A stretch of DNA of 49,882 bases from a virus, in the IMG/VR virus record IMGVR_UViG_3300005826_000013, positions 1-49,882 of that record; one strand, written 5' to 3'. The translations under genes and the position numbers were made by a program. The notes under the pieces were generated by a model. That model saw nothing but the letters and a program-made list of their open reading frames with translations. It did no database searches and was not told the DNA's origin. Numbering within the stretch: position 1 is the first letter of the stretch; each line of letters begins with the position of its first letter. Below are positions 1,387 through 49,130 of this stretch, piece after piece.

Positions 1387-1551
1387 ATGTCTCTCACCGT
1401 TTACACACACTGCGGCTGTGAACGCTGCCAAGAATTTCGGCTCCGCGAGGAGCTAGAGGAGGAGCACCGTGCCAAAGAAGAATACGGCTACGAAGCGACA
1501 GACGAAGTCAACGAAGCGAGCGACGAAGCTGCAGCCCACGAAGTCTGCTGA
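1387..1551 (+). CDS. Hypothetical small Cys-containing protein (54 aa)
   Basis: Hand-translated because it is below the track cut-off: MSLTVYTHCGCERCQEF... ATG lies directly after the upstream TGA. Confidence 0.4.
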   Translation: MSLTVYTHCGCERCQEFRLREELEEEHRAKEEYGYEATDEVNEASDEAAAHEVC

Positions 1552-1608
1552 CGAGATGCTGCGCGAAGGCGTCGAGAAGGCCAAGAAAGCGCTGCGAGGC
1601 GAAGACGA

Positions 1609-2610
1609 GTGATCTACAACAACTCGTCGCTCGTTGACGCCGGAGACTGCCTCCGTCTCTACTTCAACAAACACATTCGACGGCTCGGACTCAAGTTCGA
1701 AGAAGGCTTGCCCGGATTCTCCGATCGCTTCGAAGGTGTGCTCTGGCACGCGATCATGGCAGAACACTATAGCCACGGCGAGCACTTCGGTATCGGAGTC
1801 TCGGCAGTGATCGACGACGCCTACAAAGCTTCGTATGAAGCTGCTACGCTCGAAGAAGAGATCGCGCAGCTCGACGAGAAGCGCAGCTACTTCTCGCGGC
1901 TCTACGATGCCTACGCGAGCTATTACATCGACGACTCCGACCGCTGGGATATTCTCGGCATCGAAGAGCAATTCATCACGCCGCTGGGCGACTTCTGCCG
2001 TAGTTGCGGAGCAGCGTTTGACGACGAGATCATCCGAGGTCTTAGCACTCCAGCGACTCATTCCTGCGGAGAAGCGATTCGGTTTCTCGTCGGCCAGCTC
2101 GACCTCCGCATCCGCGAAGACGGCATCCAGAAGATAGTCGATCACAAGTCGAAGCGAACGTCGGTGAGTGAGTGGTATCTTGGCCAGTTCGTCGAGTCGA
2201 CGCAGTTCACCCAGTACCTCTATGGCGCTCGACGGAATTTCGGTGGCGATGTGTCCTGCGGCATAGCCAACGTCGTAGCGAAGCTCAAGCTCATCGACAA
2301 GAAGGGCCAGCCCTTCCACCGCAACAACGAGATCATCCGAGGTCTCGAAGACTTCGCTGTCTTCGTCGACGAGCGGAGGAGCCTCGTGGAGAGTCTAGAA
2401 GCGCGGGCGAAGCTTCAGCCAAGCGTCAGCTTGTGGCCTCGCAACGCCTCGCAGTGTCGTCGCTTTGGGCTCTGTGGATTTCACGGACTCTGCTTCCCTG
2501 CTCGTTTAAACATCCTGGAGATTCCCTACGATCTCGAAGACACGTACGAACAAAAAGAAGCCATCCACATCGACAACTATGCTAAACTCGTGGAGGAGGA
2601 GGTACGATGA
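1609..2610 (+). CDS. PD-(D/E)XK exonuclease, Cas4/RecB-like, with Fe-S type cysteines
   Basis: N-terminal Cys (DAGDCLRLYF). GQLDLRIREDG..IVDHKSK (D...DxK). QFTQYLY (QxxxY). C-terminal CRRFGLCGFHGLC. GTGA-coupled start. Confidence 0.8.
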   Translation: MIYNNSSLVDAGDCLRLYFNKHIRRLGLKFEEGLPGFSDRFEGVLWHAIMAEHYSHGEHFGIGVSAVIDDAYKASYEAATLEEEIAQLDEKRSYFSRLYDAYASYYIDDSDRWDILGIEEQFITPLGDFCRSCGAAFDDEIIRGLSTPATHSCGEAIRFLVGQLDLRIREDGIQKIVDHKSKRTSVSEWYLGQFVESTQFTQYLYGARRNFGGDVSCGIANVVAKLKLIDKKGQPFHRNNEIIRGLEDFAVFVDERRSLVESLEARAKLQPSVSLWPRNASQCRRFGLCGFHGLCFPARLNILEIPYDLEDTYEQKEAIHIDNYAKLVEEEVR

Positions 2611-2915
2611 CGAAGCAAGAACTCGTCTCTAAGCAGCAGTTTCTTCGCCGGCTCTTGGTAGGAGCTGTGATCCGTTTCGGGCATCCAGTGGCTGAGAGGC
2701 GCTTCGAAGTTCTCGTCGGCCAGTTCGACTTACCCATTGCTTGGCGAGAGCAAGGCGACGGCATCGTTCTCTCGATTGAGCTACCAGCTCCCGAGCCTGA
2801 AATGGGAGTCCTCGACGACGACGAGCCGACGGAGCCAGCGGAGCCTGAGCCGACCGATTCTACTTTCGACGCTGAGATGGATGATCTCGTCAAAGGCGTG
2901 CGGGGCGAGCTATGA
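2607..2915 (+). CDS. Hypothetical protein (102 aa), acidic tail
   Basis: ORF track. ATGA overlaps on both sides. Confidence 0.6.
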   Translation: MTKQELVSKQQFLRRLLVGAVIRFGHPVAERRFEVLVGQFDLPIAWREQGDGIVLSIELPAPEPEMGVLDDDEPTEPAEPEPTDSTFDAEMDDLVKGVRGEL

Positions 2916-3730
2916 GCCTCATCATCGACGAACCAACAGATGCTCAGCAGGCTATTCAAGTCCTCGCAGCGTCGTCCTGGCGAAGCGACCGCGTCAACGT
3001 ACTCGGCTATGGCGAGCCTGGCTCCGGCAAAACCGACTTCGGAGCTCGCTTTCCACGACCCGTCATCCTAGACACTGGCGAGAACGGACAGTTGACCGTC
3101 AAGAAGATGTTACGCGAAGGCCGAATCAAGCAGGACATTCCCGTCATTCGCACGGCAAGCTTCAGCGAGGTCATGGGCATCGCTCTCAACCCTCGCATTG
3201 CGATGAAGAATCTCTTGGCGTCGACGAAGTTCTCGAACTACGATCCCTTGACGCTCGTCGTCGACAATATCTCGGTGCTCGAAGGTTGGTGTATCGACGA
3301 GATCTTGATCTCGAAAGGTAAAGCTGACATGGAAGTCACCGAGATCAACACGCTCAAGCGGAGAATGTCGGCGTTCTTCCGCCAGATCTGGAACCTCGAC
3401 ATGAACACGGTGCTGCTCGCTCACATCTACGACGGGCGTGAAGCCTCAAAGATGATGAAAGCCAAAGACCCTGGCGTCGCACTCACTGGGCAGCTCGCCA
3501 AGATTGCTCCGGCAGCGGCTGACTTCTTTCTCTACTTCCGCATCGAAAACGAATACGACGGCACGAGCACCAACGAGACCTTCGTAGCGTACACGACTGG
3601 CGTGACAGGTTTCCCGGCCCGTACTCGCCTTCGCGGGCTGCTTCCCGAGCGGCTCGTCAACCCGAGCTACGAAGACTTGCGCAAGGCTCTCGATGCTTTG
3701 GAGCAGAACAATGACTCAGAAGCCAAATGA
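2912..3730 (+). CDS. RecA-fold ATPase of the AAA_24 / Sak4-like type (recombination)
   Basis: Walker A YGEPGSGKT near the N-terminus. Walker B-like LTLVVDNISVLE. Size and position next to a nuclease are typical of Sak4-like proteins. Confidence 0.7.
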   Translation: MSLIIDEPTDAQQAIQVLAASSWRSDRVNVLGYGEPGSGKTDFGARFPRPVILDTGENGQLTVKKMLREGRIKQDIPVIRTASFSEVMGIALNPRIAMKNLLASTKFSNYDPLTLVVDNISVLEGWCIDEILISKGKADMEVTEINTLKRRMSAFFRQIWNLDMNTVLLAHIYDGREASKMMKAKDPGVALTGQLAKIAPAAADFFLYFRIENEYDGTSTNETFVAYTTGVTGFPARTRLRGLLPERLVNPSYEDLRKALDALEQNNDSEAK

Positions 3731-3867
3731 ACCAAATGAATCCCCTTCGACATCCAACGAGCTCCTACTGTACGAGAAGTTCTCTCATTTATCCTCAGAG
3801 CTCAGAGGAAGCTGCCTCCAGCTCCTCCGAGAACCACGAAGTCAACTAAGCGAAAAGGAAAAGCCCA

Positions 3868-4356
3868 ATGACAGAAGAAACTCAAGCCCAAGACACCGAA
3901 GAGTTCGACCCTAACGATCTTACCGGCCTCGACCTCACGTTCGACGCGAAGACGTGGGAAGAAGGCGGGATGGAGCCAGCCGGAGCGGTCGGCTACAAGA
4001 TCGAGTCGGCCAAGATCGAGAAGCGCAAGACCAAGAAAGGAGAGCCCTTTGCGATTTGCTCGGTCGAAGTCCGTATTCACTCGCGTCCTGGCCAGAAGAT
4101 CGAGAAGCCTGCTCCGTTCTGGGATGACTTCTCGCTCAATCCTCGCTACATCGACACGTTTAAACGATTCGCCGCTGCCGCAGGCATCAAGCCGGCTCCC
4201 GGTGCTCCTGTCAACATTCCTGAAATGGTGAAGGCGCTGCCTGGCAAGAGTGGCTTCGGCGTCATCGTGCACAAGGAGTTCGTGCACAACGGTGAGAATA
4301 GAAAGAAGGCTCAGTTCTCGCGCAAGTTCGGCAAGAGCTTTGCTGAAGTGACCTAA
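3868..4356 (+). CDS. Hypothetical protein (162 aa), possibly a DUF669-like ssDNA-binding partner of Sak4
   Basis: ORF with an AAAAGGAAAAG RBS. The functional call rests on position after the AAA_24 gene and an acidic N-terminus only. Confidence 0.55.
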   Translation: MTEETQAQDTEEFDPNDLTGLDLTFDAKTWEEGGMEPAGAVGYKIESAKIEKRKTKKGEPFAICSVEVRIHSRPGQKIEKPAPFWDDFSLNPRYIDTFKRFAAAAGIKPAPGAPVNIPEMVKALPGKSGFGVIVHKEFVHNGENRKKAQFSRKFGKSFAEVT

Positions 4357-4475: not shown

Positions 4476-7013
4476 ATGAAGAAGCCTAAGCTCCTCTGGG
4501 AGTCTGAGCCCTTCGGGCCGAAGTGCGCCGGTTGCGCATACCAGCCTTGGTCTCGACACTACGTGCCTCCTGAGATCAAAGACTCTCGGGTCGTGTTACT
4601 CGGCGAAGCCGCAGCTTACTGGGAGTGTCTCGAAGGAATGCCGTTCGCAGGGCGTTCTGGCGGCAAGCTGAATCACTGGCTCGGCTTCGCAGACCTCACT
4701 CGTCTCGACGTCGATATCGTCAATAGCTGTCGCTGCCGCCCCGTTGCCTGGGAGCTCTGCGATATCTGTCAGGGCGACGGAGAGATTCTCCGCGAGTTCA
4801 TCGACGACAACCCGCAGTTCGACGCCTGCGATCTCTGTGATGCACGCGGCTGGACGCCAGTGATTCAAGGCGACGGTGACTACCGCAACGCAACGCCCGA
4901 GCCCGACCAAATCTCCGAGTGTATGCGGCGCTACGGCCATGAGACGCTGCGCGGGCTCAAGCGGAAGAAACTCATCGTTGCCCTCGGCGGATCAGCTCTC
5001 TATGCTCTCACGGGCAAGTCGAGCCTCGGAGACTACTCCGGCTCGGTGCTCGACACGGAGCACGGTCCAGCCTTGATCACCTATCATCCCGCGTCCGCAC
5101 TGTACTCGGATGAGTTTGAGCCAGCGGCGATTCGAGCGTTTACACGCATCCCCGCGATCGTCGCGGGCACCGAAGGCGCAGGCTTGGAAGTCACTTACCT
5201 TACACACCCATCCCACGAGGATATCGATGAATACCGAACAGCGCGATCGTTTGTTTTGGACCTTGAGACGACTGGAGGAATGTCTCCAGAAGCCTCAGCT
5301 GGAGACATCAAAGTCGCGGGAGCTAGCCTCCGACCTGGTCACGCAATTACTGTCTTACCTGGTTCTCAGCTCCGCGAGCTCCTTGAGTCATGCGACTCCG
5401 TCACCGGCCAATACTTCTACGCCTACGACGCCTGGTGGCTCCACCACCGCAGCTACCCTGTACCCCCAACCATCGTCGACACCCAAGTCCTCGGCCACGC
5501 CGTCGACCCTCTCACTCCCAACGACATCACCTTCCTCACCACCCAATACGCCGAGCCCCCACTCAAGTCCTACTGGAAGTCCGAGACCGACTACGCCGAA
5601 GACCTCGGAGGCGTCGCTCTACGCGATGTCGATGCAACGAGCCGCATTGAGCGAGGGCTCTGGTCTTGGTTGCGCAAACAGTCCCAGCTCGATCTCGCCA
5701 ACGACGTTATCATTCCCTGGACCCGACTTGCCTTCGAGCTCCGGCGAGACGGTCTCCGCTGCAACGTCGCGGCTCTGCGAGACGGCGCTAAAGAACTCGA
5801 TCGAGAAGTTCGTGACGCAGGTCAAAAGCTTTCAAGCAAGTGTGGAATACCTCTACCCAAGAAGTCCAAGACCGGCATCCCTAGCCCTCAAGCTATCACT
5901 AAGCATCTGTACAGTGTCCTTGGACTCCCTGTCCAGAAGCATCGAAAGACAGGCAAAGTAACCGGTGACGAGCGTGCGCTCAAGAAGTTGAGGAGCTGGT
6001 GCTGGAAGCACGGTCACTCCGACGGGCTCTATTTTCTCTCGCAGCTTATTGGTGCGCCAGCCGCCATTGAGGGTGAGTGGGAGCAAGGACTCAAGCAGCG
6101 ATCGACGATGGTCAAAGACCTCAAGAAGTTCGCAGGTGAAGACGACGGAACGACGATTCGAACGCTCCATGCGTTCGTCAACCTGACCGGCACTGTCACG
6201 GGCCGACTCTCTTACGAGAGACCTGGTTTACACCAAGTCCCGAAGCACTGTCGCTCCGCGTTCCTCCCCGACCACGACGATCACGTCTTGATTGAGTTCG
6301 ACTACAAGCAGATTGAGTTCCTCACGATGCTATGGTTTGCGGGAGAGTGGGAGAAGCTGAGGCTCGGCCTCTCAGGCATCGATTTTCACCGTTACGCAGC
6401 TTCGCTGTTCTACGGAGTCGCGGAGTCCTCGGTCACACAGATTCAGCGGCGTAACGTCAAAGCTCTCAACTTCGGTATGATCTTCGGCAAGGGCGTCAAG
6501 ACTACAGCCGAAGACCTCGATGTCTCTTTTGGCGCAGCGCAGAAGCTTTATGATCGCTGGTTCGAGATGTTTCCTGGCGTGCCCAAGCTCCGCTCAACCT
6601 GGACTTCTCAAGTCTCGTCGCTCGGCTACCTTCAAACTCCTGCCGGTTGGCGTGTCCGTTTCAACAAAGACCAGCAGGAAAACACCCATCGTGGATCGGT
6701 CACCACTCAGATCTACAACTACCCGATCCAATCGACCGCAGGTATCCGCACGCGCGAAGCGCTCGTCAACCTCTGGCGCGAGCTGTCTCGCCTCTGGAGT
6801 CCCGACGACGTCCGCTTTGTCTTGACCGTTCACGACTCTGGTATTGTCTCAGCCCGCAAAGATCTCGTGAAAGAAGTCATCGAAGTGATTACCGAGGTTG
6901 CAACCGCACCCTACAAACACCTGCCTGCTGACATTCCCGGTCATCGAGACGGCCTTCGCTTCCCGATCGACGTTAAGGTCGGGCCTTCGTGGGGAGAACT
7001 GACGAAATGCTAA
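4476..7013 (+). CDS. Fusion of a family-4 UDG-like domain, 3'-5' exonuclease and family-A DNA polymerase
   Basis: UDG4-like: CAGC, LLGEAAAYWE..PFAGRSG, NSCRCRP, TYHPAS. Exonuclease: FVLDLETTG. Polymerase: DYKQIEF, RRNVKALNFGMIFG, LTVHDS. GGAG precedes ATG 4476; the track start is 4464 (GTG). Confidence 0.9.
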   Translation: MKKPKLLWESEPFGPKCAGCAYQPWSRHYVPPEIKDSRVVLLGEAAAYWECLEGMPFAGRSGGKLNHWLGFADLTRLDVDIVNSCRCRPVAWELCDICQGDGEILREFIDDNPQFDACDLCDARGWTPVIQGDGDYRNATPEPDQISECMRRYGHETLRGLKRKKLIVALGGSALYALTGKSSLGDYSGSVLDTEHGPALITYHPASALYSDEFEPAAIRAFTRIPAIVAGTEGAGLEVTYLTHPSHEDIDEYRTARSFVLDLETTGGMSPEASAGDIKVAGASLRPGHAITVLPGSQLRELLESCDSVTGQYFYAYDAWWLHHRSYPVPPTIVDTQVLGHAVDPLTPNDITFLTTQYAEPPLKSYWKSETDYAEDLGGVALRDVDATSRIERGLWSWLRKQSQLDLANDVIIPWTRLAFELRRDGLRCNVAALRDGAKELDREVRDAGQKLSSKCGIPLPKKSKTGIPSPQAITKHLYSVLGLPVQKHRKTGKVTGDERALKKLRSWCWKHGHSDGLYFLSQLIGAPAAIEGEWEQGLKQRSTMVKDLKKFAGEDDGTTIRTLHAFVNLTGTVTGRLSYERPGLHQVPKHCRSAFLPDHDDHVLIEFDYKQIEFLTMLWFAGEWEKLRLGLSGIDFHRYAASLFYGVAESSVTQIQRRNVKALNFGMIFGKGVKTTAEDLDVSFGAAQKLYDRWFEMFPGVPKLRSTWTSQVSSLGYLQTPAGWRVRFNKDQQENTHRGSVTTQIYNYPIQSTAGIRTREALVNLWRELSRLWSPDDVRFVLTVHDSGIVSARKDLVKEVIEVITEVATAPYKHLPADIPGHRDGLRFPIDVKVGPSWGELTKC

Positions 7014-7528
7014 AGCTAAAGCCCGAAGAGACTTTCTCCATCGATCCAGAGGAGTTCGGGAGTGTGCCCGAGAAGAACTTCCACGTCCTTCCCCATCCTA
7101 CTCTCCTGCTGCTAGGCAACGAGAAGATTCTCGACGTTCAGCGAGCGTTGCTGGCTGCGAAGCACTCGGTCATCTTCTTCGACGCGCCCGAGATTCCACG
7201 CCGCAAGTCCTCGGTCTACTTGTTCAAGAGCCTCTTCGAGACGCTGAAAAAGACAAGACTTGCGGAGCTGAAAGAAGCTCTACCCCCAAGGGGTTATTGG
7301 ATGGCGTTTCGTGTCGAGGCTCAACTAGACAGCATCAAGAAGCGCGATCTCTTTGCGTGGGTAGTGAAGAACAACGTCTTGCCGTGGCTGGAGACCGAGT
7401 CAGATGTCCGCCGCTTCTACCAGTTTACACAGCAGCACAAGGCTACGATCCAATATGTCTTCTGCGAAGTCGAGAGTGACACTCCCTTGACGCGTCTCCG
7501 TTCTAACATCGTCGTCACGGTCGAATGA
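7007..7528 (+). CDS. Hypothetical protein (173 aa)
   Basis: ATG at 7007 overlaps the polymerase stop (frame of ORF 6989..7528). Confidence 0.55.
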   Translation: MLKLKPEETFSIDPEEFGSVPEKNFHVLPHPTLLLLGNEKILDVQRALLAAKHSVIFFDAPEIPRRKSSVYLFKSLFETLKKTRLAELKEALPPRGYWMAFRVEAQLDSIKKRDLFAWVVKNNVLPWLETESDVRRFYQFTQQHKATIQYVFCEVESDTPLTRLRSNIVVTVE

Positions 7529-7531
7529 TTC

Positions 7532-8968: not shown

Positions 8969-9243
8969 CGAAGAAAGTCTGTCCTATTGAACCGCTGTTC
9001 GAGAACGTCCTGTGTAAACGTGTCGAGATCGAGGAGAAGCGCGTCGGCATGATCATCGTACCGCAGTCGGCTATCGAGAAGCCGATGGAAGCCGTCGTCG
9101 TGTCGGTTGGCGAGTCGGTCAAGAAGCTGAAAGCCGGTGACGCGATCCTGGTCGGACGCTACGCGGGTGCTGAGCTCTCGTTTCAGAACGAGAAGTACCT
9201 CGTGATTCGAGAGGATGAGGTCTTGGGAATCATCAATGGCTGA
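8965..9243 (+). CDS. groES: GroES/Cpn10 co-chaperonin homologue
   Basis: 92 aa. IEPLFENVLCKRVEIEEKRVGMIIVPQSAIEKPMEAVVVSVG..LKAGDAILV..YAG matches the Cpn10 pattern along its full length. Confidence 0.8.
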   Translation: MTKKVCPIEPLFENVLCKRVEIEEKRVGMIIVPQSAIEKPMEAVVVSVGESVKKLKAGDAILVGRYAGAELSFQNEKYLVIREDEVLGIING

Positions 9244-11418: not shown

Positions 11419-11763
11419 TCAAAGAGAGCCTCCGTTGGTTGGTAGGTTTTCAAGGGATTTGGCAGCAGCAGCTTCGCGCTGAGCCTGCCAGCGAAGAAAT
11501 GCCTGCCAAGCCTGGGACAACTGCGTAGCAAGAGCAGCAGGTGTCGGAGTCGGCGTGAGGGCCGTCCGATCGAAGCACAACAGAGCGATCGACTCAGTAC
11601 CTTCGTACTCAGCGTCTCGCTGGACCTTACCTTGGGCGAGAAGCTTATCAGCCTCTTCGGCACTCGGCGCAATCGCGACGAAAGCCTCGACTTGGACGTT
11701 TACACGCAGGAGCCTATAATGCTTCAAGGCCCCACCATTCGTTGGGATCGTATTTTCAGCCAT
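11419..11763 (-). CDS. Hypothetical protein (114 aa)
   Basis: ORF track. No SD sequence. The ATG is preceded by the conserved promoter/operator element at 11764..11798. Confidence 0.6.
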   Translation of the reverse strand: MAENTIPTNGGALKHYRLLRVNVQVEAFVAIAPSAEEADKLLAQGKVQRDAEYEGTESIALLCFDRTALTPTPTPAALATQLSQAWQAFLRWQAQREAAAAKSLENLPTNGGSL

Positions 11764-38149: not shown

Positions 38150-39866
38150 AGTGTCTTCCTCCTCGGACACGAGCCGCCTGAACCTTGTTCCAGTTCGCTC
38201 CCGCATACGTTGGATCGCCCGGCATCTTCCAGATGTAGTCCAAATAAGACCAGGCGTCAAGCAAGTCGACAGGGCGGGCACGCGGGAACTTAGCATACTG
38301 AGCCAAGAAATCCGACATACCGGCTTGAAAATGCCACTGGCCTTGGCCTAGAAAAAGCTGCTGAGCTTTGATACGCCGCTTCTTCGCGTTGTCGGAGTTG
38401 TCAGGCTTGAGGTCGGTGATAAGGAGATCGGTCGGGATTTTCCGCTTCAAGTCGTCGCTCAAGAGCTTCCGCATCGATCGCATGTGCTCGAAGAAAAACT
38501 TATACAGTTTCTGCGAGGCGACAGACTCAATCCCGACTTCCTTGAGAAACGGCGCGAACTCCGCCACTGTCACAACGATCTCATCCCACAGCTCGTCCGG
38601 CTCAACACGATCAGCCCACGCCTTCAACAGGAAGCGACAGCCGTCGGGTGCTAACGCCCCGACAGTGATCGCGCTCTGCGCGGCGTCGTCGTTGTCGGAC
38701 CACGCTGGGTCGACTGTCGCCGCGACATGACACTCGAACAACGAGTGCCGGTGCTTCGAGTGGGCTTTGCACTCGCAGTGCAGATCTCCATCGATCGTCC
38801 GAGTGAAATAGTTGATGTATGAGGGCGAAAACCCCGACTGCGACGGATCAAACGGCGCACAAAGGTAGTTACACGAGAACAGAAACGGTCCATACTTCCG
38901 CTCAATGCGTTCGAGCTCCGTGCGAGGATACCGCTCTGGAAAAATCGGCTCAGACGGCACCTCAGCCTTGAAAAGCATCGACGAAGAACCCTCGTAGAGT
39001 GGAGCCTCATAGAGCTGCGTCCACGGGTCGATCTCCAAGGGCATGAATTCGGGCGATGCGATCTCGGGCGAGCAATAGAAGTCTCCGTAACACCCAATCT
39101 TCCATAACAACATCTCACCGGTCGAGACTTCGTTCTCAAGCGCGTACTCGACGACGTCACCGAAGCCCCAAGGCGTCGCAACGAGGTCGATCGTCGAGCT
39201 CGCGTAGTCTTGAAGCGTCGATTCGAGGAGTTTGTAGAGTCCGACGGCCCGATCGACGAGTCTTGGTGAGTCAACGGTCATCTCGTTGACCGGATCATCC
39301 AAGATCACATGGCGAACGTGCTTCGAGGCTTGACCAGAGATAATCGAAGTCGCTTGAATGCTCGGTTGAGGCTCTGGCATAAGACTTTCGTCTCGTCGAA
39401 CCGTGAATCGAGTCTTCGATTTTTCGACGTGATGCCAGTTGACCGGCAAGAGTTCGGGAAAGAGCCACTGAAACTTCTCATTTCCACGAAAAACCCTCTG
39501 AATCGCACCCAACCACGCGACCGAGTTCTCCTCAACCGCCGAAATCACGTTGATCGTCGCGCACGGGTCGTTGATCAGCAGCCAGATCGGCTTGCCGACG
39601 CTCGAATTCGTCGACTTGAAGTGGTTGCGAGGCATGATTCCGCCCTTGAGGCGGGCGCTCGGGAGACCAGAAGCCTCAGCGGAGAGCTGGAGGAAGTTGC
39701 AGAACGGAAGGTGAAGGCGAGGAGTCAAGTCTTTGAAGCCAAGAATGCCTTTGTTGAGGACGTAGAGCGACCGTTTACACATGTCGCGCAGCGTCGCCCA
39801 GAGAAACTCCTGCTCGTCATCGCTCAGACGCGACCACTCAGTGCTTTCTGGCGCTCTCGTCTGCAT
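38133..39866 (-). CDS. terL: Terminase large subunit (577 aa)
   Basis: ATPase half with VRHVILDDPVNE (Walker B). Nuclease half with AATVDPAWSDNDDAAQSAITVGA. Size and position fit. Confidence 0.85.
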   Translation of the reverse strand: MQTRAPESTEWSRLSDDEQEFLWATLRDMCKRSLYVLNKGILGFKDLTPRLHLPFCNFLQLSAEASGLPSARLKGGIMPRNHFKSTNSSVGKPIWLLINDPCATINVISAVEENSVAWLGAIQRVFRGNEKFQWLFPELLPVNWHHVEKSKTRFTVRRDESLMPEPQPSIQATSIISGQASKHVRHVILDDPVNEMTVDSPRLVDRAVGLYKLLESTLQDYASSTIDLVATPWGFGDVVEYALENEVSTGEMLLWKIGCYGDFYCSPEIASPEFMPLEIDPWTQLYEAPLYEGSSSMLFKAEVPSEPIFPERYPRTELERIERKYGPFLFSCNYLCAPFDPSQSGFSPSYINYFTRTIDGDLHCECKAHSKHRHSLFECHVAATVDPAWSDNDDAAQSAITVGALAPDGCRFLLKAWADRVEPDELWDEIVVTVAEFAPFLKEVGIESVASQKLYKFFFEHMRSMRKLLSDDLKRKIPTDLLITDLKPDNSDNAKKRRIKAQQLFLGQGQWHFQAGMSDFLAQYAKFPRARPVDLLDAWSYLDYIWKMPGDPTYAGANWNKVQAARVRGGRHYATRY

Positions 39867-41013: not shown

Positions 41014-41022
41014 GCTCAGCGT

Positions 41023-41358
41023 TTACACGCGCCGAGGCTCCACGAGCTCGCGCGCGATCCCGGCGTCGTCATACGCCCGCATCGGCGGGTCGAGCTCTGG
41101 CGTCGACCAGACGAACGCCGCGAGCGCTTCGCCGAGCGCGGCTCGCGCGGCAACGGTCGTCCGCTCGGAGTACCGTCGTGCAGGAGCGAGCGCCAGCTCG
41201 CGCAGCGCGACGCCGCAGCCGTAGCCGCCAGGCGACGACTGTGTAAACACAGTTCCCTCCGCGTCCTGGCCGCGCAGCACGCGCTTTAGCGCGACGAGCG
41301 AGCGGCCCGAGTTCTCATCGACCGCGAAGCGAATTAAGCGAGCCATGTTTTTCAGCAT
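41023..41358 (-). CDS. Orphan GC-rich gene (111 aa), unknown function
   Basis: ATG MLKNMARLIRF after GGAGAAAAG. Hand counts give about 65-77% GC per 60-nt line, against about 53-57% elsewhere. Confidence 0.5.
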   Translation of the reverse strand: MLKNMARLIRFAVDENSGRSLVALKRVLRGQDAEGTVFTQSSPGGYGCGVALRELALAPARRYSERTTVAARAALGEALAAFVWSTPELDPPMRAYDDAGIARELVEPRRV

Positions 41359-43084: not shown

Positions 43085-44064
43085 CCGACTTCCTCAGCCC
43101 CCTAGACCCCGAGCACCGGCCACTAGCCCGCCGTGACGACTCCAATCCTCGCACCCACCATCCGATCCTAGGGTTTCCCTACCTCACGAAGCCCAACGTT
43201 TACACCTGGCGACAAGACTACCGATCAGCCCACGACATGATGCGCGCTTTCAGCGACTTCGACAACTCCGAGACGTACCACAACGACTACACCCCTGGAG
43301 AGATCTCCGGTTTCCTTTATGCACGCGATCTCATGCTCAAAGGCTGGCCCGAAGGAGCCTCGCGCTTGCTAAGACAGCATAAGCTACTTCTAAGCTACAC
43401 GACGCAGCTTGTCGAAGCCCCCAAGGCCGTCACCGACGTATACGGCGACTTTTACGACATCGGATCGTTCATGGCTGGCCAGCCTGACCACTGGCTCCGC
43501 TTCGAGCGCGAGACCAAACGCGGCTTCTCAAAGAAAGGTCCGATCCGCCTTGTCATTCAGCACGCGGTCAGCACAGGAGCCTCCACCGATCGTCTCATCC
43601 AACGAGGCGCACTAGCATTAACCCTCGCGACGCTCTTCGAGCGTGCCGGTCGACCTACTGAAATCGTTAGCGCCGACGCTGGCCGCTGGCACTTCGAAGG
43701 CAACCAACAAAACCTCTATTGGACGGTCTTAGTGAAACCCATGAGTCGCCCCCTCAACGTCTCTTCAATGGCCTTCGCCATCGCCCACGAGTGCATGGAA
43801 CGGACGTTCTACCTCAGCACAGGCCGCAGCCTCGCCGCCACTATCTCAGAATCTTTTGGAGAACGTGCGAAAGATGGCACCCTCATAACTTTCACAAACG
43901 GTTGTGGAATGCCACTCAACGCCCCCGTAGGTTCGCCAACCGACACGATCACCCTTGACTATCTCCCCGACCACGTAAGCTTAGGAAAGCCCGAAGCAAC
44001 CACCAACTATCTGATTCGAAGCCTCGAAGCCCAGGGCGTAGAAATCTCTCGGAGGAAACAATGA
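43081..44064 (+). CDS. Partner protein of the AAA+ ATPase (327 aa), possibly a degenerate vWA/CobT-like fold
   Basis: ATGA-coupled to the ATPase. IRLVIQHAVSTGAS sits where a vWA MIDAS DxSxS would be, with Asp replaced by His. Weak inference. Confidence 0.5.
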   Translation: MTDFLSPLDPEHRPLARRDDSNPRTHHPILGFPYLTKPNVYTWRQDYRSAHDMMRAFSDFDNSETYHNDYTPGEISGFLYARDLMLKGWPEGASRLLRQHKLLLSYTTQLVEAPKAVTDVYGDFYDIGSFMAGQPDHWLRFERETKRGFSKKGPIRLVIQHAVSTGASTDRLIQRGALALTLATLFERAGRPTEIVSADAGRWHFEGNQQNLYWTVLVKPMSRPLNVSSMAFAIAHECMERTFYLSTGRSLAATISESFGERAKDGTLITFTNGCGMPLNAPVGSPTDTITLDYLPDHVSLGKPEATTNYLIRSLEAQGVEISRRKQ

Positions 44065-45600: not shown

Positions 45601-46143
45601 ATGACCGACCCGATCGTTTACACGCGGGGCGCGTCGACCGACCACTGGGAGACGCCCCCGCAGCTCTTCGAGCTCGCGTCGCGGGCCTTCGCAGAGCCGA
45701 CCGGCTTCGCCCTCGATGCAGCGGCGAACGCTGCGAACACCCTCGCGCCTCGATGGCTCGGCCCTGGCGGGCTCTCGCCCGACGCTCTCAGCTTGGATGA
45801 TTGGCCGCTGGCCGAAGGCCAAGCCGCATGGATGAACCCGCCGTACAGCAAACTCGCAGGCCCGCTAGCTCGCTGGGTCGAACGAGCGGATGAAGTCGCA
45901 AGCGAAGCGAGCCGCCGTCGCGTCGTCTGCCTGCTCAAAGCCGACACCTCGACGAAGTGGTTCCGCTTCGCCGCTGCACGAGCATGGCGGATCGTCTTCC
46001 TGCAACCCCGCGTGCGCCACCTGCTCGCTGGTCACGAGCAAGCAACGCCGCCCTGGGGCTCACTCCTCGCTGTCTTCGATGCTGCGCAGCGAGGCGAAGC
46101 TAGAGCGATCGTCACAGTCGCCTACTGGAGAAAACGCCGATGA
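45601..46143 (+). CDS. dam: Phage-type DNA N6-adenine methyltransferase (small Dam family)
   Basis: DHWETPPQLFE, FALDAAANA and WMNPPYS (NPPY catalytic motif) in a ~180-aa protein match the small phage Dam family layout. Confidence 0.8.
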   Translation: MTDPIVYTRGASTDHWETPPQLFELASRAFAEPTGFALDAAANAANTLAPRWLGPGGLSPDALSLDDWPLAEGQAAWMNPPYSKLAGPLARWVERADEVASEASRRRVVCLLKADTSTKWFRFAAARAWRIVFLQPRVRHLLAGHEQATPPWGSLLAVFDAAQRGEARAIVTVAYWRKRR

Positions 46144-46579: not shown

Positions 46580-46734
46580 CGCTACGTTTACACGCTCGCA
46601 CTCTCCGAGCCTTCGCCTGGATTCTCTTCTTCTCGGCGTGGCTCTTCGCCGAAGCGATGCTGCTCTGCACGTTTCTATCCCTCCACGATGACTTCGCCGA
46701 GCTCGAAGCTGGCATGGAGGATCTCAGGCGCTGA
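46576..46734 (+). CDS. Small membrane protein (52 aa)
   Basis: Hand-translated: MTLRLHARTLRAFAWILFFSAWLFAEAMLLCTFLSL... ATGA-coupled. Confidence 0.4.
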   Translation: MTLRLHARTLRAFAWILFFSAWLFAEAMLLCTFLSLHDDFAELEAGMEDLRR

Positions 46735-47067: not shown

Positions 47068-47092
47068 CTCATACCGTCACATGACGTAAGCT
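47064..47092 (+). promoter_or_regulatory. Sigma-70-like promoter candidate
   Basis: TTGACT, a 17-bp spacer, then TAAGCT, in one of the few intergenic gaps. Followed by GGAGGA and ATG 47116. Confidence 0.3.
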
Positions 47093-47115
47093 CAGAGAGA
47101 ACCTGGAGGAACGAA

Positions 47116-47298: not shown

Positions 47299-47300
47299 CA

Positions 47301-47642: not shown

Positions 47643-47643
47643 G

Positions 47644-47994
47644 ATGAAGCCAAGAAAATTCACATGGATCTGCGGAGCGGAATTCACTGTCAAGCTCTCG
47701 AAGAACCGCCAAACAATCTACTACCAGTATCTCTTCTCTTACCCAGAGGCGGGAGGAGGTCGGTCCGCCTTGCAGAATAGTAGTTGTCTCGTCAAGCAAC
47801 TTCGCAAGATCCTCGATCGCAAGAACGAGAGACCTTGTTACGACGGTGGTGGTCCATACTGCCGAGTGCTTCCAGGCATCCACGTCTCCGATGGCGACAT
47901 GCATTTGGAAAAAGACGAAGTCGTGGCTATGCGTCGAACCATCCGCGCAGTCTTCCGACACCTCGGACTCTCGACGACGGAGGTCACAACGTGA
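47644..47994 (+). CDS. Hypothetical protein (116 aa)
   Basis: ATG after an AAGGAGA RBS (frame of ORF 47590..47994). Confidence 0.55.
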   Translation: MKPRKFTWICGAEFTVKLSKNRQTIYYQYLFSYPEAGGGRSALQNSSCLVKQLRKILDRKNERPCYDGGGPYCRVLPGIHVSDGDMHLEKDEVVAMRRTIRAVFRHLGLSTTEVTT

Positions 47995-48173
47995 AACGAC
48001 CAGACTTCGTCACAGACGAGCACTTGGAGTATCTAGACGAGCTGCGCGAATCTGGAGTCACGAACATGTACGGAGCGGCGGCTTACGTAGCAGACGAGTT
48101 CGATATGGATAAACGCAGGGCCAGGGAAGTGTTCACCTACTGGAAGCAGTCTTTCGGGAGTCCAGTACGATGA
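47991..48173 (+). CDS. DUF5049-like small phage protein (60 aa)
   Basis: GTGA-coupled GTG start. LDELRESGVTNMYGAAAYVADEF...W resembles the DUF5049 signature, as I recall it. Confidence 0.5.
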   Translation: MKRPDFVTDEHLEYLDELRESGVTNMYGAAAYVADEFDMDKRRAREVFTYWKQSFGSPVR

Positions 48174-48580
48174 GCTACCCTTCGCGCAAATACCGCTGGA
48201 TGAGAGCGACCGAGCGAGCTTTCAAGCGACTTGACATCCTCGCCTCGCAGATTGCGACGGGACGCAACTTCTCGATCTCCGAGATCATCCAGCTCGGCCA
48301 CGACTTCGTCTCTCTGGGCTCGCGCGGTCTCGCTCTTCACCAAGGCGGAGGCGAGCACTACCGTCGTCGCGTCGAGACCCGAACAGTGGAAATCGAGATG
48401 GCACTCGGCTTGCTCCGTGACTTCGTCACATCACGCCGCTTCAACATCGACAACTTTCCCAAATTCTCTTCGCCCTGGACGCGTTCTCGCGAAGACGTTG
48501 CCGAAGGCACCGACGCTATCGATCGCCTGGACGACCTGCGTCGAGACTTCGGCTTGGTCGACGAAGAGGTAGAAGCTTGA
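48170..48580 (+). CDS. Hypothetical protein (136 aa)
   Basis: ORF track. ATGA-coupled. Confidence 0.55.
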   Translation: MSYPSRKYRWMRATERAFKRLDILASQIATGRNFSISEIIQLGHDFVSLGSRGLALHQGGGEHYRRRVETRTVEIEMALGLLRDFVTSRRFNIDNFPKFSSPWTRSREDVAEGTDAIDRLDDLRRDFGLVDEEVEA

Positions 48581-48852
48581 AGTCTTTCATCTCCGACCTC
48601 AAACGAGCAGCTCTGATCGTCTTGACGTGGATGCTCGTTTGGACGTTCGCTCTCATGCTCCAGCGGAGCTGCACGGCAAAGCCGACGGATCTACGTGTAA
48701 ACAGTTATGACATTTCGCTCGCGGCGGTGTGGAAAGCAGACACGCAAGGGGAGGGTAATATAAAGCGGTACCGGGAGGAAAGAGTGGCCCGTAGCCGCCC
48801 AGCGATTGACCGCCGAACACTAAGCGGGTGGCAGGAGCTGTCGTCGCTATGA
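48577..48852 (+). CDS. Hypothetical membrane-anchored protein (91 aa)
   Basis: TTGA-coupled TTG start. Hydrophobic AALIVLTWMLVWTFALML. Confidence 0.4.
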   Translation: MKSFISDLKRAALIVLTWMLVWTFALMLQRSCTAKPTDLRVNSYDISLAAVWKADTQGEGNIKRYREERVARSRPAIDRRTLSGWQELSSL

Positions 48853-49130
48853 GAGACTACTCGATGAAAGCTCGCGAGAGTGCGCGGATGATCCTCGAAG
48901 AGATTGGAGAGCCGGACGAGCCTTTGGTCTCGTCGGCCTCGTCGATCTGCTACTGCTGCAAGCGCCTGCTGCCTCGCCAGGGCGCGTGTTTAAACGCTCC
49001 CCACATCTGCAAATCGTGTCGCTACCACTTAAAGAAGGGCGCAAAGAACCTGGAGAAGACTCGCAAAGCCCTCGACTTCCACCTTGCAGCACACCGAGCG
49101 GAGCGCCGGGTGAAGACGGAGGCGAAATGA
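48849..49130 (+). CDS. Zinc-finger-like protein (93 aa)
   Basis: ATGA-coupled ATG (frame of ORF 48828..49130). CYCC...C..HIC..C cluster. Confidence 0.5.
   Translation: MRDYSMKARESARMILEEIGEPDEPLVSSASSICYCCKRLLPRQGACLNAPHICKSCRYHLKKGAKNLEKTRKALDFHLAAHRAERRVKTEAK

What the first reader, a model, noticed from the sequence alone, without database searches (positions are those of the whole stretch)
1398..48996. Frame-independent, strand-biased 9-mer CGTTTACAC scattered through the genome
**Counts.** Exact CGTTTACAC occurs at 1398, 5137, 11697, 25197, 39772, 41020, 43197, 45615 and 46585. It occurs as GTGTAAACG at 9012, 15525, 18329, 22125, 25458 and 35232. That is 15 copies, against about 0.4 expected for a random 9-mer on both strands (2 x 49762 / 4^9).

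**Variants.** Five more sites keep the 8-mer GTTTACAC: 6226 and 7423, and reversed at 13578, 41241 and 48705. Five carry the one-base variant CGTTTAAAC: 2503, 4157, 15743 and 25809, and reversed at 48988.

**DNA-level conservation.** The word is translated in all three frames, so the DNA is conserved rather than a peptide:
- V-Y-T at 1398, 43197, 45615 and 22125
- F-T at 5137, 15525, 18329, 25458 and 35232
- R-L-H at 46585

**Orientation and spacing.** 14 of the 20 GTTTACAC copies point the same way as their host gene, so orientation flips with the two convergent arms. Spacing is roughly 1-5 kb, with a gap at 25.5-35.2 kb. Flanks are only weakly conserved.

**Possible roles.** No annotated feature explains this. 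Candidates are:
- a polar Chi/KOPS-like signal, perhaps shared with the host
- strand-specific nick sites, as in T5- or phiKMV-type phages
- binding sites for a phage DNA-binding protein
- the target of the encoded N6-adenine methyltransferase (45601..46143)
Basis: seen in the sequence. Interest (0 to 1): 0.8.

Follow-up and report, generated by a model that had tools for sequence, protein, structure and literature searches.

The report
Phage-borne highly iterated octamer GTTTAMAC
This phage genome carries 26 copies of an 8-base word (GTTTACAC/GTTTAAAC) where fewer than one is expected, and the same word is scattered at about 0.5-1 per kb through two other unrelated phage groups but not through flanking host DNA, so it is a real phage-specific DNA signal whose reader and function are still unknown.

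Summary
The core is the 8-mer GTTTAMAC: 21 GTTTACAC plus 5 palindromic GTTTAAAC, with C favoured at -1 and G or A at +1. That is 26 sites in a circular 49,762-bp genome, against about 0.5 expected. Single-mismatch variants sit at background and GTGTACAC is absent. Flanks are unrelated. Synonymous-codon shuffles do not reproduce the count.

The 15/21 co-orientation with genes matches the 70% predicted by codon constraints. Sense, antisense and palindromic forms are each enriched about 31-37-fold. The word therefore behaves as an orientation-neutral duplex signal, not a polar Chi/KOPS-type one.

The closest relatives by large terminase (57-76% identity) lack it. The same word, with the same flanking bias and the same exclusion of GTGTACAC, fills two unrelated lineages:
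- a very abundant IMG/VR family (at least 593 contigs, about 1 site per kb);
- HK97-like prophages of Micromonosporaceae (11-15 sites per 22 kb).

13.7 kb of flanking host DNA contains none. That refutes an uptake-sequence-like host word and weakens a Chi-like reading. One-strand nick sites and a methylase target are also disfavoured.

My best reading, at low confidence, is genome-wide binding sites for an unidentified small duplex-DNA-binding protein. I found no published description.

The parts
1399..1406 (+). GTTTACAC site (with 5' C), intergenic between ORFs 1075-1386 and 1469-1612
2504..2511 (.). palindromic GTTTAAAC site inside PD-(D/E)XK nuclease gene 1609-2610
4158..4165 (.). palindromic GTTTAAAC site (full CGTTTAAACG) inside SSB-like gene 3868-4356
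5138..5145 (+). GTTTACAC site, sense, in UDG-PolA gene (F-T frame)
6226..6233 (+). GTTTACAC site, sense, in UDG-PolA gene (L-H frame)
7423..7430 (+). GTTTACAC site, sense, in ORF 7007-7528
9012..9019 (-). GTTTACAC site, antisense, in GroES gene 8965-9243
11698..11705 (+). GTTTACAC site, antisense, in ORF 11419-11763(-)
13578..13585 (-). GTTTACAC site, sense, in ORF 11795-13702(-)
15525..15532 (-). GTTTACAC site, sense, in ORF 13699-16554(-)
15744..15751 (.). palindromic GTTTAAAC site in ORF 13699-16554(-)
18329..18336 (-). GTTTACAC site, sense, in ORF 16557-19922(-)
19037..19044 (-).
22125..22132 (-). GTTTACAC site, sense, in ORF 21116-23944(-)
25198..25205 (+). GTTTACAC site, antisense, in Laminin_G_3 gene 24643-25536(-); relatives have V-N here with other codons
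25458..25465 (-). GTTTACAC site, sense, in gene 24643-25536(-); TTT ACA here versus TTC ACC in relative L004
25810..25817 (.). palindromic GTTTAAAC site in ORF 25697-25924(-)
35232..35239 (-). GTTTACAC site, sense, in gene 34645-35376(-)
39773..39780 (+). GTTTACAC site, antisense, in the N-terminus of the large terminase gene 38133-39866(-), 58 nt below the small-terminase candidate
41021..41028 (+). GTTTACAC site 12 nt from the DnaA-box cluster; supplies the TAA stop of (-) ORF 41023-41358
41241..41248 (-). GTTTACAC site, sense, in (-) ORF 41023-41358
43198..43205 (+). GTTTACAC site, sense (V-Y-T), in DUF7192 gene 43081-44064
45616..45623 (+). GTTTACAC site, sense, 15 nt into the Dam-like methylase gene 45601-46143
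46586..46593 (+). GTTTACAC site at the start of a ~720-bp stretch with no convincing ORF (46580-47300)
48695..48702 (-).
48988..48995 (.). palindromic GTTTAAAC site in ORF 48849-49130(+)

Best explanation
GTTTAMAC (extended form Y-GTTTAMAC-R, ideally CGTTTAAACG) is a recognition word read on duplex DNA regardless of orientation. It is kept at about 0.5-1 copy per kb in phage DNA by positive selection on the DNA itself. I think the copies are most likely binding sites for a small sequence-specific, probably dimeric, DNA-binding protein that loads at many places along the phage chromosome. That would tag phage DNA as distinct from a host chromosome in which this AT-rich word is very rare.

Shown:
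- the enrichment;
- its sharpness;
- its independence from peptide, frame and orientation;
- its restriction to phage DNA;
- its recurrence in three unrelated phage lineages.

Inferred:
- what process it serves.

My guess for the process is control of late-stage DNA handling (late-operon or packaging region). The locally densest sites sit next to the terminase genes in all three lineages. In the abundant IMG/VR family a conserved 77-aa LexA-type winged-helix protein lies directly beside the tight site cluster. No reader was identified in this window.
For: Enrichment and sharpness:
- 26 sites against about 0.5 expected.
- Codon-preserving shuffles do not reproduce the count.
- All 24 tested one-mismatch variants occur 0-2 times and GTGTACAC 0 times.
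- About half of all positions where the protein sequence allows the word actually carry it: 12/19 sense, 5/10 antisense, 5/19 palindromic.

Orientation neutrality:
- Enrichment is equal, 31-37-fold, for sense, antisense and palindromic forms.
- Spacing looks random, with gap CV 0.95.

DNA-level selection:
- Relatives keep the amino acids with other codons.

The same word elsewhere:
- IMG/VR family F has 564 GTTTAAAC, 319 GTTTACAC and 8 GTGTACAC in 858 kb. The word is the top 8-mer in nearly every member across 58-100% primase-helicase identity and 41-57% GC.
- Prophages of Catellatospora, Micromonospora coerulea and Asanoa have 15, 11 and 12 sites per ~22 kb. At -1, C occurs in 38 of 55; at +1, G occurs in 42 of 55; GTGTACAC is absent.

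Restriction to phage DNA:
- There are 0 sites in 6.4 + 3.2 + 4.1 kb of host flank.

Arguments for a phage-borne determinant:
- Presence or absence varies within one phage lineage and one host genus. L414 is rich; L416 and L417 are poor.
- A sub-lineage of family F has a shifted word, CGTTTAAA[C/T/G]. That pattern is expected for a co-evolving reader.

Candidate reader and location:
- A LexA-type winged-helix protein lies next to a tight cluster of 2-4 sites in 18 of 23 motif-rich loci.
- Sites crowd around the terminase genes in family F, in the prophages and in the window (39773, 41021, 41241).
Against: - No DNA-binding protein was found in the window by Pfam, PHROGs or NCBIfam over all ORFs.
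- The family-F winged-helix protein has no detectable homologue in the window (hmmsearch E 0.78; hhalign 12%).
- No protein family detectable by phmmer or tblastn is common to all three motif-bearing lineages. An identical 8-10-bp specificity in three lineages with no shared reader gene fits a conserved host factor better.
- Transcription-factor sites usually tolerate mismatches. This word is as sharp as an enzyme site.
- An 8-bp palindrome is too short for two helix-turn-helix units on successive major grooves.
- The link to packaging or late genes rests only on local site density.
Confidence: 0.35

Rival explanations
1. A conserved host factor reads the word, and phages accumulate it because it helps them. 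The most concrete version is a Chi-like signal that tames a host helicase-nuclease (RecBCD, AddAB or AdnAB) entering broken or linear phage DNA from either side.
For: - The same specificity occurs in three lineages that share no detectable reader gene.
- The closest terminase relatives of the window and of family F lack the word, as expected after host shifts.
- The density matches Chi-rich phage LLS, which has 23 Chi sites, one per 1.86 kb (PMC12315714).
- Chi-like words are sharp 5-8-mers.
- The window and family F avoid an overlapping set of 6-bp palindromes, which hints at similar hosts.
Against: - There is no orientation bias beyond the coding null (11+/10-). LLS has 20 of 23 and MD8 32 of 32 sites in one orientation.
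- The palindromic form dominates in family F.
- 13.7 kb of host flank contains 0 sites. This is weak against a density of 1 per 5 kb.
- Prophages of the same lineage in the same genus (Micromonospora) are either rich or poor in the word.
- The window encodes its own PD-(D/E)XK nuclease, AAA_24 and SSB-like recombination set. Chi-rich phages typically lack such a module.
- The word is AT-rich and would be hard to maintain in a 72% GC chromosome.
Confidence: 0.2
2. The sites are operators of a global phage repressor of the stoperator type, like the many asymmetric repressor sites of cluster A mycobacteriophages, which silence transcription across the genome.
For: - The site number per genome is similar: L5 has more than twenty 13-mers (PMC9283540).
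- Family F encodes a LexA-type winged-helix protein with sites just upstream of its own gene.
- The third lineage is temperate and actinobacterial, with an integrase and WhiB.
- Non-coding DNA in family F is about 3-fold richer in sites than coding DNA.
Against: - In the window 23 of 26 sites lie inside genes, mostly far from their ends.
- Orientation is explained by codon constraints, whereas stoperator function depends on orientation.
- No integrase or repressor was found in the window.
- The word is only 8-10 bp and partly palindromic.
- The winged-helix protein is absent from the window.
Confidence: 0.15
3. The word is the target of a DNA methyltransferase or another modification enzyme. 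Its abundance would then be maintained as for the cyanobacterial highly iterated palindrome HIP1, whose abundance has been linked to cognate methyltransferases.
For: - It is an octamer palindrome with a one-step variant, sharply defined, enriched in all frames and with lineage-specific variants. HIP1 is described in the same terms: 16-317-fold over-represented, function unknown (PMC5861425; PMC4390886).
- The window encodes a PF05869 adenine methylase.
- The word contains adenines on both strands.
Against: - PF05869 methylases also occur in motif-free relatives L002 and L004, at 32% identity.
- No methylase was seen in 32 kb of a family-F genome or 22 kb of the Catellatospora prophage.
- HIP1 itself is not enriched here.
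- HIP1 fills host chromosomes, whereas this word is absent from host flanks.
- Being a methylation target does not by itself select for more copies.
Confidence: 0.12
4. The sites are positions of programmed single-strand nicks made by a phage nickase, as in Pseudomonas phage tf, T5 and phiKMV-like phages.
For: - The sequence anatomy closely resembles tf: a 9-mer, TACTRTGMC, with two degenerate positions, 14 copies in 46 kb, inside genes, with few one-mismatch variants that are not cut. The tf genome also has two convergent gene arms (PMC3517423).
Against: - In tf, T5 and phiKMV-like phages all sites lie on one strand. Here the split is 11+/10- plus 5 palindromes.
- The palindromic form is enriched as much as the asymmetric one, and dominates in family F. 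A nickase would then cut both strands and break the genome.
- The word is equally frequent in integrated prophages.
- No HNH or other nickase candidate was found in the window.
Confidence: 0.08
5. The word is a host genome-wide word, such as a DNA uptake sequence, that phages pick up passively while resident in the host.
For: - The statistics resemble uptake sequences: both orientations, all frames, random spacing, 520 per Mb.
- Temperate Pasteurellaceae phages reach 100-750 uptake sequences per Mb (PMC6776037).
Against: - Host DNA next to the prophages has 0 sites in 13.7 kb, against 0.6-0.7 per kb inside them.
- The window shows no sign of a temperate lifestyle.
- A scan of 185,579 species genomes for close pairs of the 9-mer gave only tandem repeats and scattered chance hits. 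That scan was cut off at 120 rows and had low power.
Confidence: 0.02

Closest known systems
Localized nick sites of Pseudomonas phage tf (5'-TACT/RTGMC-3') and LUZ24-like phages
   Same: - A sharply defined 9-mer with one or two two-fold degenerate positions.
- 14 copies in a 46-kb podophage genome with two convergent gene arms.
- Sites inside genes, with one-mismatch variants rare (PMC3517423).
   Different: - tf sites are all on one strand and were shown experimentally to be nicked.
- Here the sites are on both strands.
- A palindromic variant is equally enriched.
- The word also fills integrated prophages.
- No nicking data exist for this word.
Chi-rich phages (E. coli phage LLS, Pseudomonas phage MD8, P1)
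   Same: - An octamer accumulated far above expectation. LLS has 23 sites, one per 1.86 kb, almost the same density as here.
- The word is lineage-specific within a phage group (PMC12315714).
   Different: - Chi is the host's own abundant word. It is strongly one-oriented relative to the packaging end and is associated with the absence of a phage recombination module.
- Here the word is absent from host flanks, neutral in orientation and partly palindromic.
- The window has recombination genes.
Stoperators of cluster A mycobacteriophages (L5 gp71 13-mer)
   Same: - More than twenty copies of one short asymmetric site spread over a ~50-kb actinophage genome.
- The sites are read by a small phage-encoded HTH protein (PMC9283540).
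   Different: - Stoperators are 13 bp, mostly intergenic, and function only in one orientation relative to transcription.
- Here the word is 8-10 bp, mostly intragenic in the window, and neutral in orientation once coding constraints are removed.
HIP1 (GCGATCGC), the highly iterated palindrome of cyanobacteria
   Same: - An octamer palindrome, 16-317-fold over-represented.
- Found in all reading frames, with lineage-specific replacement octamers.
- Function unresolved for decades (PMC5861425; PMC4390886).
   Different: - HIP1 is a property of cellular chromosomes and is GC-rich.
- This word is AT-rich, confined to phage or prophage DNA, and accompanied by an equally enriched one-step asymmetric variant.
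DNA uptake sequences (USS/DUS) in temperate phages of Pasteurellaceae and Neisseriaceae
   Same: - Both orientations, random spacing, all frames.
- 100-750 copies per Mb in phages (PMC6776037).
   Different: - Uptake sequences are at least as dense in the host as in the prophage.
- Here the host flanks have none.

Membership tests
tf/T5/phiKMV-type localized nick sites | All sites confined to one DNA strand | tested here: not met
   11 on +, 10 on -, plus 5 palindromic sites. The one-strand rule is taken from PMC3517423.
tf/T5/phiKMV-type localized nick sites | Ligatable single-strand breaks in virion DNA at the sites | not testable with these tools
   This needs denaturing gels or read-start analysis of virion DNA.
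tf/T5/phiKMV-type localized nick sites | Sharply defined 7-19-bp word, far above chance, with one-mismatch variants rare | tested here: met
   26 sites against about 0.5 expected; variants occur 0-2 times each.
Chi-like recombination/protection signal | Strong orientation bias relative to replication or the packaging end | tested here: not met
   The split is 11+/10-. Co-orientation with the gene arms (71%) equals the codon-permutation null of 70%. LLS shows 20 of 23 and MD8 32 of 32.
Chi-like recombination/protection signal | The same word is over-represented in the host chromosome | tested here: inconclusive
   13.7 kb of Micromonosporaceae host flank contains 0 sites. That excludes phage-like density but not one per ~5 kb. 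The host of the window is unknown.
Chi-like recombination/protection signal | Phage lacks its own recombination or anti-RecBCD module | tested here: not met
   The window encodes a PD-(D/E)XK nuclease, an AAA_24 ATPase and an SSB-like protein.
DNA uptake sequence (USS/DUS-like) | Host genome carries the word at equal or higher density than the resident phage | tested here: not met
   Host flanks have 0 sites in 13.7 kb. The adjoining phage DNA has 11 sites in 15.3 kb and 12 in 18.6 kb.
Stoperator-type global repressor sites | Sites predominantly in short intergenic spaces or promoters | tested here: not met
   In the window 23 of 26 sites are inside ORFs, many more than 500 nt from either end. 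Family F is partly different: 2.1 sites per kb in non-coding DNA against 0.66 in coding DNA.
Stoperator-type global repressor sites | Orientation tied to the direction of transcription beyond chance | tested here: not met
   The observed 12:5 equals the coding-constraint expectation of 0.70.
Stoperator-type global repressor sites | Cognate repressor encoded by the phage | tested here: inconclusive
   None was found in the window. Family F has a LexA-type winged-helix protein next to a site cluster. Small DNA-binding ORFans cannot be excluded.
HIP1-like highly iterated palindrome | Octamer palindrome enriched more than 15-fold in all reading frames | tested here: met
   GTTTAAAC is enriched 31-fold in window coding DNA and 48-fold in family F. 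It occurs in all usable frames.
HIP1-like highly iterated palindrome | Property of the cellular chromosome, with a cognate methyltransferase present | tested here: not met
   The word is absent from host flanks. No methylase was found in the sampled family-F or prophage DNA. The window's Dam-like enzyme is also present in motif-free relatives.
Promoter or terminator element | Fixed position upstream of genes, or a partner element at fixed spacing | tested here: not met
   There is no conserved flank within +/-25 nt. Sites lie deep inside genes. They do not coincide with promoter- or terminator-like matches.
DnaA box | Match to TTWTNCACA | tested here: not met
   The word has G at box position 1 and tolerates A at the conserved C6. 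The true DnaA boxes (TTATCCACA, TTTTCCACA) form a separate cluster at 40923-41008.

The most novel reading that the evidence does not exclude
GTTTAMAC is the signature of an undescribed, phage-restricted 'iterated octamer' system. It would be a self-recognition code written about once per 1-2 kb into the DNA of several unrelated phage lineages:
- this phage;
- a very abundant uncultured family with at least 593 IMG/VR contigs;
- temperate prophages of Micromonosporaceae.

One conserved but still unknown reader would recognise it. It differs from Chi, uptake sequences, HIP1, stoperators and nick sites in being confined to phage DNA, neutral in orientation and shared across lineages.
Probability: 0.45. 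Interest if true: 0.85.

Novelty: new variant of a known kind. Interest (0 to 1): 0.75.

Why it matters
Short words kept at high copy number are among the few genome-wide signals that can be read straight from sequence. Each known class (Chi, KOPS, uptake sequences, stoperators, nick sites) led to a mechanism.

This word is unusually clean: 8 fixed positions, one two-fold degenerate position, 31-48-fold enrichment and no tolerance for the double variant. It occurs only in phage DNA, yet it recurs in unrelated phages, including one of the more abundant uncultured families in IMG/VR and inducible-looking prophages of cultivable actinomycetes.

That combination makes it testable. The Catellatospora, Micromonospora and Asanoa strains exist, and a 10-bp oligonucleotide is all that is needed as bait.

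- reveal how these phages mark or handle their own DNA;
- give a sequence tag for recognising such phages and prophages;
- possibly bear on the unsolved HIP1 and T5/tf-nick problems.

Tried and rejected
- **Longer dispersed repeat:** rejected. Flanks are unrelated beyond -1/+1.
- **Peptide or codon artefact:** rejected. The word occurs in all frames and uses rare codons, and codon shuffles do not reproduce it.
- **Sequencing-adapter artefact:** considered and dropped. The word is not part of common adapter ends (my own knowledge), and it recurs in independent NCBI genomes.
- **Near-identical relatives:** none in the phage collection or IMG/VR. The best large-terminase relative is 76% identical.
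- **A different over-represented word in the relatives:** nothing comparable. L005 has AAAACCGG x5 and L003 has ACTACTTC x6, both borderline.
- **Host identification:** failed.
  - No tRNA genes.
  - No Rfam hits.
  - GroES gave 3 uninformative hits.
  - The window contig could not be looked up by its terminase.
- **Scan of species genomes for pairs of the 9-mer:** truncated at 120 rows and dominated by tandem repeats. Uninformative.
- **DnaA box, LacI/GalR half-site, parS half-site, PhoP/CpxR half-sites, sigma-B -35:** resemblances recalled from memory. None fits the full word or the AAC variant. Only the DnaA box was tested.
- **Shared reader gene:**
  - tblastn, phmmer, hmmsearch and hhalign between the window, family F and the prophages found only the capsid protein, a MoxR-type AAA ATPase, a SprT-like protein and one small helical protein shared with family F.
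  - Nothing was shared with the prophages.
  - The family-F small terminase and the window's candidate are not detectably related.
- **AlphaFold model of (-) ORF 41023-41358:** too poor to use (pLDDT 47), so no fold search was run.
- **Literature:** no paper in the searchable library mentions GTTTACAC or GTGTAAAC, or links GTTTAAAC with phage-genome enrichment.

Full report
**1. The observation**

Expected by dinucleotide shuffles: 0.17; none of 100 shuffles reaches 15.

The 8-mer GTTTACAC occurs 21 times, 11 on + and 10 on -, against 0.50 expected.

An exhaustive k-mer scan ranks GTTTACAC and the palindrome GTTTAAAC (5 sites) as by far the most over-represented 8-mers.

Every other single-base variant I tested occurs 0-2 times, and the double variant GTGTACAC never occurs. 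The unit is therefore GTTTAMAC, 26 sites.

Flanks within +/-25 nt share nothing except C at -1 (19 of 26) and G or A at +1 (20 of 26). This is not a longer dispersed element.

The contig ends in an exact 120-bp overlap, so the genome is a 49,762-bp circle. There are two arms:
- early and replication genes on + from about 40.3 kb through the origin of coordinates to about 9.6 kb;
- structural genes on - from 9.6 to 40.3 kb.

**2. Is it more than chance or coding?**

Shuffling synonymous codons genome-wide while keeping every protein gives a mean of 4.4 sites and a maximum of 8. Four of those 4.4 are sites outside my gene calls that were not shuffled. The observed count is 26.

The favoured sense frame (xxG TTT ACA C) uses the rarer Phe and Thr codons of this 57% GC genome.

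Of the positions where the protein sequence would allow the word, a large share carry it:

| Form | Positions allowing the word | Positions carrying it |
|---|---|---|
| Sense GTTTACAC | 19 | 12 |
| Antisense GTGTAAAC | 10 | 5 |
| Palindrome GTTTAAAC | 19 | 5 |
| Control GTGTACAC | 6 | 0 |

At orthologous codons, relatives keep the amino acids but spell them differently:
- window ACG TTT ACA CTC against L004 GAG TTC ACC CTC;
- window CGT GTA AAC against L002 TAC GTC AAC.

The DNA word itself is under selection.

**3. The strand bias is a by-product**

15 of 21 asymmetric sites point the same way as their arm. Of the 17 inside called genes, 12 are sense and 5 antisense. A further site, 43198, is sense within the longer ORF 43081-44064.

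Permuting codons within each gene predicts 70% sense, because the antisense spelling GTGTAAAC contains TAA in one frame.

| Form | Expected per genome | Observed in called genes | Enrichment |
|---|---|---|---|
| Sense GTTTACAC | 0.32 | 12 | 37-fold |
| Antisense GTGTAAAC | 0.14 | 5 | 37-fold |
| Palindrome GTTTAAAC | 0.16 | 5 | 31-fold |
| GTGTACAC | 0.30 | 0 | none |

The selected object is an orientation-neutral duplex word. Spacing is indistinguishable from random (gap CV 0.95; the 9.4-kb gap is not exceptional).

Sites are not placed like promoters or terminators.

**4. What the phage is**

It has no close relative in the phage collection or in IMG/VR. It encodes:
- an SU10-type portal, a large terminase and an HK97-fold capsid protein;
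- a family-A DNA polymerase with an N-terminal UDG-like domain;
- a DUF3987 primase/helicase, a PD-(D/E)XK nuclease, an AAA_24 ATPase and an SSB-like protein;
- a MoxR-type AAA ATPase with DUF7192 and a SprT-like protein;
- a PF05869 adenine methylase, GroES and a T7-lysozyme-like amidase.

No integrase, repressor, HNH nuclease or recognisable DNA-binding domain was found in any ORF.

**5. Relatives by terminase lack the word**

Contigs encoding terminases 57-76% identical (L001-L006, about 78 kb in all) contain no GTTTAMAC at all. They also have no other 8-mer of comparable enrichment.

Two of them encode PF05869 methylases. The methylase therefore does not track the word.

**6. The same word in unrelated phages**

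A scan of IMG/VR for two copies of the 9-mer within 30 nt was meant as a long shot. It returned many contigs in which GTTTAAAC and GTTTACAC are dispersed at about one per kb, with unrelated flanks.

*Family F*
- The contigs belong to one family, which I call family F. It is defined by a Terminase_6C-type large terminase, a T7-like primase-helicase, a MoxR-VWA-SprT-like module and a 77-aa LexA-type winged-helix protein.
- At least 593 IMG/VR contigs encode this terminase. Contigs reach 62 kb.
- In 80 loci (858 kb) there are 564 GTTTAAAC, 319 GTTTACAC and only 8 GTGTACAC, which is 1.03 sites per kb.
- The word is the top 8-mer in almost every member over 58-100% primase-helicase identity and 41-57% GC.
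- For GTTTACAC, the -1 base is C in 77 and T in 16 of 98 sites, and the +1 base is G in 58 of 98. This matches the window.
- Cultured phages with 54-59% identical terminases lack the word: DSL-LC04, 023Pt_psg01 and Pelagibacter phage HTVC027P.
- One sub-lineage has a shifted word, CGTTTAAA[C/T/G].
- In family F, non-coding DNA is about three times richer in sites than coding DNA. Even so, coding DNA is still enriched 48-fold for the palindrome (crude gene calls and redundant loci).
- A tight cluster of 2-4 sites lies between a 212-aa ORF and the winged-helix gene, which abuts the large terminase.
- From its N-terminal motif I read the 212-aa ORF as a Terminase_2-type small terminase. This is my reading of alignment A4, not a database test.

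*Third lineage: Micromonosporaceae prophages*
- Locus L242 has 11 sites in 12.4 kb against 0.32 matches expected.
- It carries a classical HK97-type module, with no similarity to family F or the window: Terminase_4, TerL_ATPase/nuclease, Phage_portal, S78 protease, Phage_capsid and a tail tube.
- Its terminase is 100% identical to one annotated in Catellatospora sichuanensis. Homologues of 70-74% occur in Micromonospora and Asanoa.
- Site counts per ~22 kb are 15 for the Catellatospora prophage (which also has WhiB, PD-(D/E)XK, DnaB_C, Toprim and HNH), 11 for the Micromonospora coerulea element and 12 for the Asanoa prophage.
- C is at -1 in 38 of 55 sites and G at +1 in 42 of 55. GTGTACAC is absent.
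- Several sites are positionally conserved among the three prophages: a pair 36 bp apart in the gene after the capsid gene, one at the portal start and one in the terminase.

**7. Phage DNA only**

- In the M. coerulea locus all 11 sites lie within the phage part (15.3 kb, 60.5% GC). None lies in the 6.4 kb of host DNA (recX, recA and others; 72.2% GC).
- In Asanoa all 12 sites lie beyond the integrase. None is in the 3.2-kb host flank.
- A further 4.1 kb of host flank in L417 also has none.
- At phage density about 8 sites would be expected in these 13.7 kb.

This refutes a passively acquired host-wide word (uptake-sequence or HIP-like in the host). It weakens, but does not exclude, a Chi-like word at about one per 5 kb.

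Two elements of the same prophage lineage in other Micromonospora strains are motif-poor:
- L416 (terminase 70% identical to L242's) has 2 sites in 21.7 kb.
- L417 (69%) has 2 sites in 21.7 kb.

Presence therefore varies within one host genus and one phage lineage. That pattern favours a phage-borne determinant.

**8. Who reads it?**

- The window shares with family F only the capsid protein (29% identity), the MoxR ATPase (29-31%), the SprT-like protein (32-38%) and one small helical protein. It shares nothing detectable with the prophages.
- The family-F winged-helix protein is conserved across the family and sits by the site cluster. Its nearest solved relative is the LexA DNA-binding domain. 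It has no homologue in the window.
- No methylase or integrase was seen in 32 kb of a family-F genome.
- A single-sequence AlphaFold model of the (-) ORF 41023-41358 was unusable. That ORF lies between the origin-like region and the terminase genes and contains or abuts two sites.

**9. Weighing the explanations**

Features that any model must fit:
- sharpness;
- a two-fold degenerate position (A or C, both amino bases in the major groove);
- intolerance of the double variant;
- a weakly palindromic 10-bp extension;
- neutrality to orientation;
- restriction to phage DNA;
- local crowding near the terminase genes.

Together these fit recognition of duplex DNA by a symmetric or near-symmetric binder that needs one perfect GTTTA half.

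- **Nicking** is disfavoured by the two-strand distribution and by the enriched palindrome.
- **Chi-like function** is disfavoured by the lack of polarity, the host-flank result and the within-genus variation. The precedent of Chi-rich phages at the same density is nevertheless striking.
- **A methylation target** does not explain the enrichment, and the methylase does not co-vary with the word.
- **A stoperator-like global repressor** is possible for family F and the prophages, but it fits the window poorly.

I therefore commit, at 0.35, to genome-wide binding sites for a small DNA-binding protein that marks phage DNA, probably connected with late or packaging functions. A host-encoded reader is at 0.2 and the remaining rivals are lower.

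**10. Novelty**

I found no paper that mentions the word in this sense. The phenomenon belongs to the known kind 'iterated short recognition words', but it fails at least one defining feature of every described class. Its recurrence in three unrelated phage lineages, one of them very abundant and one in cultivable hosts, is new as far as I can tell, and it makes the question experimentally tractable.

Noticed in passing
window 40919-41013 and 41360-41900: All five matches to the DnaA-box consensus TTWTNCACA in the whole genome lie at 40923-41773. Four fall within 86 bp: two inverted TTATCCACA and two TTTTCCACA, embedded in 29-nt direct repeats. A 35-47% GC stretch follows. This looks like a DnaA-dependent origin or early control region at the point where the two gene arms diverge.
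   Followed up: partly
window 1-120 and 49763-49882: There is an exact 120-bp terminal direct repeat. The contig is a circular assembly of a 49,762-bp genome.
   Followed up: yes
window, whole genome: GC-rich 6-bp palindromes are strongly avoided: CTCGAG 0 against 35 expected, GGCGCC 1/14, CTGCAG 1/12.6, CGGCCG 1/12.6, CCGCGG 2/13.6, CAGCTG 3/17.7. Family F avoids an overlapping set (CCGCGG 3/189, GGGCCC, GTCGAC, GCGCGC, GGCGCC, CAGCTG, CGGCCG). This points to pressure from Type II restriction systems and possibly to related hosts.
   Followed up: partly
window 4464-7013 (+): The family-A DNA polymerase carries an N-terminal uracil-DNA-glycosylase-superfamily domain (residues 40-220).
   Followed up: no
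window 41023-41358 (-): A (-) strand ORF of 111 aa has coding-like GC3 (0.80) and sits in a locally 72% GC stretch inside the early (+) arm. Its TAA stop codon is provided by the motif site at 41021, and a second site lies inside it. There are no homologues, and the structure model was poor.
   Followed up: partly
window 46580-47300: About 720 bp have no convincing ORF on either strand. The stretch begins right at motif site 46586.
   Followed up: no
window 2025, 2328, 2880, 24275, 27518, 48280: The 10-mer GATGATCTCG occurs 6 times, on both strands and in different genes. I did not examine whether this is codon-driven.
   Followed up: no
window 8965-9243 (+): The phage encodes a GroES co-chaperonin. 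GroES genes are also annotated in DSL-LC04, 023Pt_psg01 and HTVC027P.
   Followed up: no
L367 and L368 (family F sub-lineage): Here the iterated word is shifted by one base and asymmetric: CGTTTAAA followed by C, T or G (22 copies in 17.7 kb). This suggests that the specificity drifts within the family.
   Followed up: partly
L260 (phage 023Pt_psg01, MW574966.1, first 50 kb): GGTGGTGG/CCACCACC occurs 42 times against 1.3 expected. I did not check whether this reflects a Gly-rich repeat gene or a Chi-like word (it matches the Haemophilus Chi form GNTGGTGG, from memory).
   Followed up: no
L002 8813-9130 and L003 638-1039: The motif-free terminase relatives encode dGTP_diPhyd_N (PF18909) proteins. 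This domain is known from the MazZ enzymes of 2-aminoadenine (Z-genome) phages. No counterpart was detected in the window.
   Followed up: no
L416 and L417 (Micromonospora sp. WMMA1363 and PSH03): Elements of the same HK97-like prophage lineage carry only 2 sites each. A 212-219-aa protein that is intact in the three motif-rich prophages (L413 6111-6749, L414 6667-7326, L415 5310-5843) is not among their called genes. With only five elements this is a weak correlation.
   Followed up: partly
L413 7786-7803 and 9090-9290: In the Catellatospora prophage one site sits in a 16-bp perfect palindrome, CCGGGTTTAAACCCGG. tRNA-like sequence lies between the small terminase gene and the next site.
   Followed up: no
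L005 2165-4376: The closest terminase relative (76%) has AAAACCGG five times in 4.4 kb (0.19 expected). This is of borderline significance and could be a different iterated word in that lineage.
   Followed up: partly
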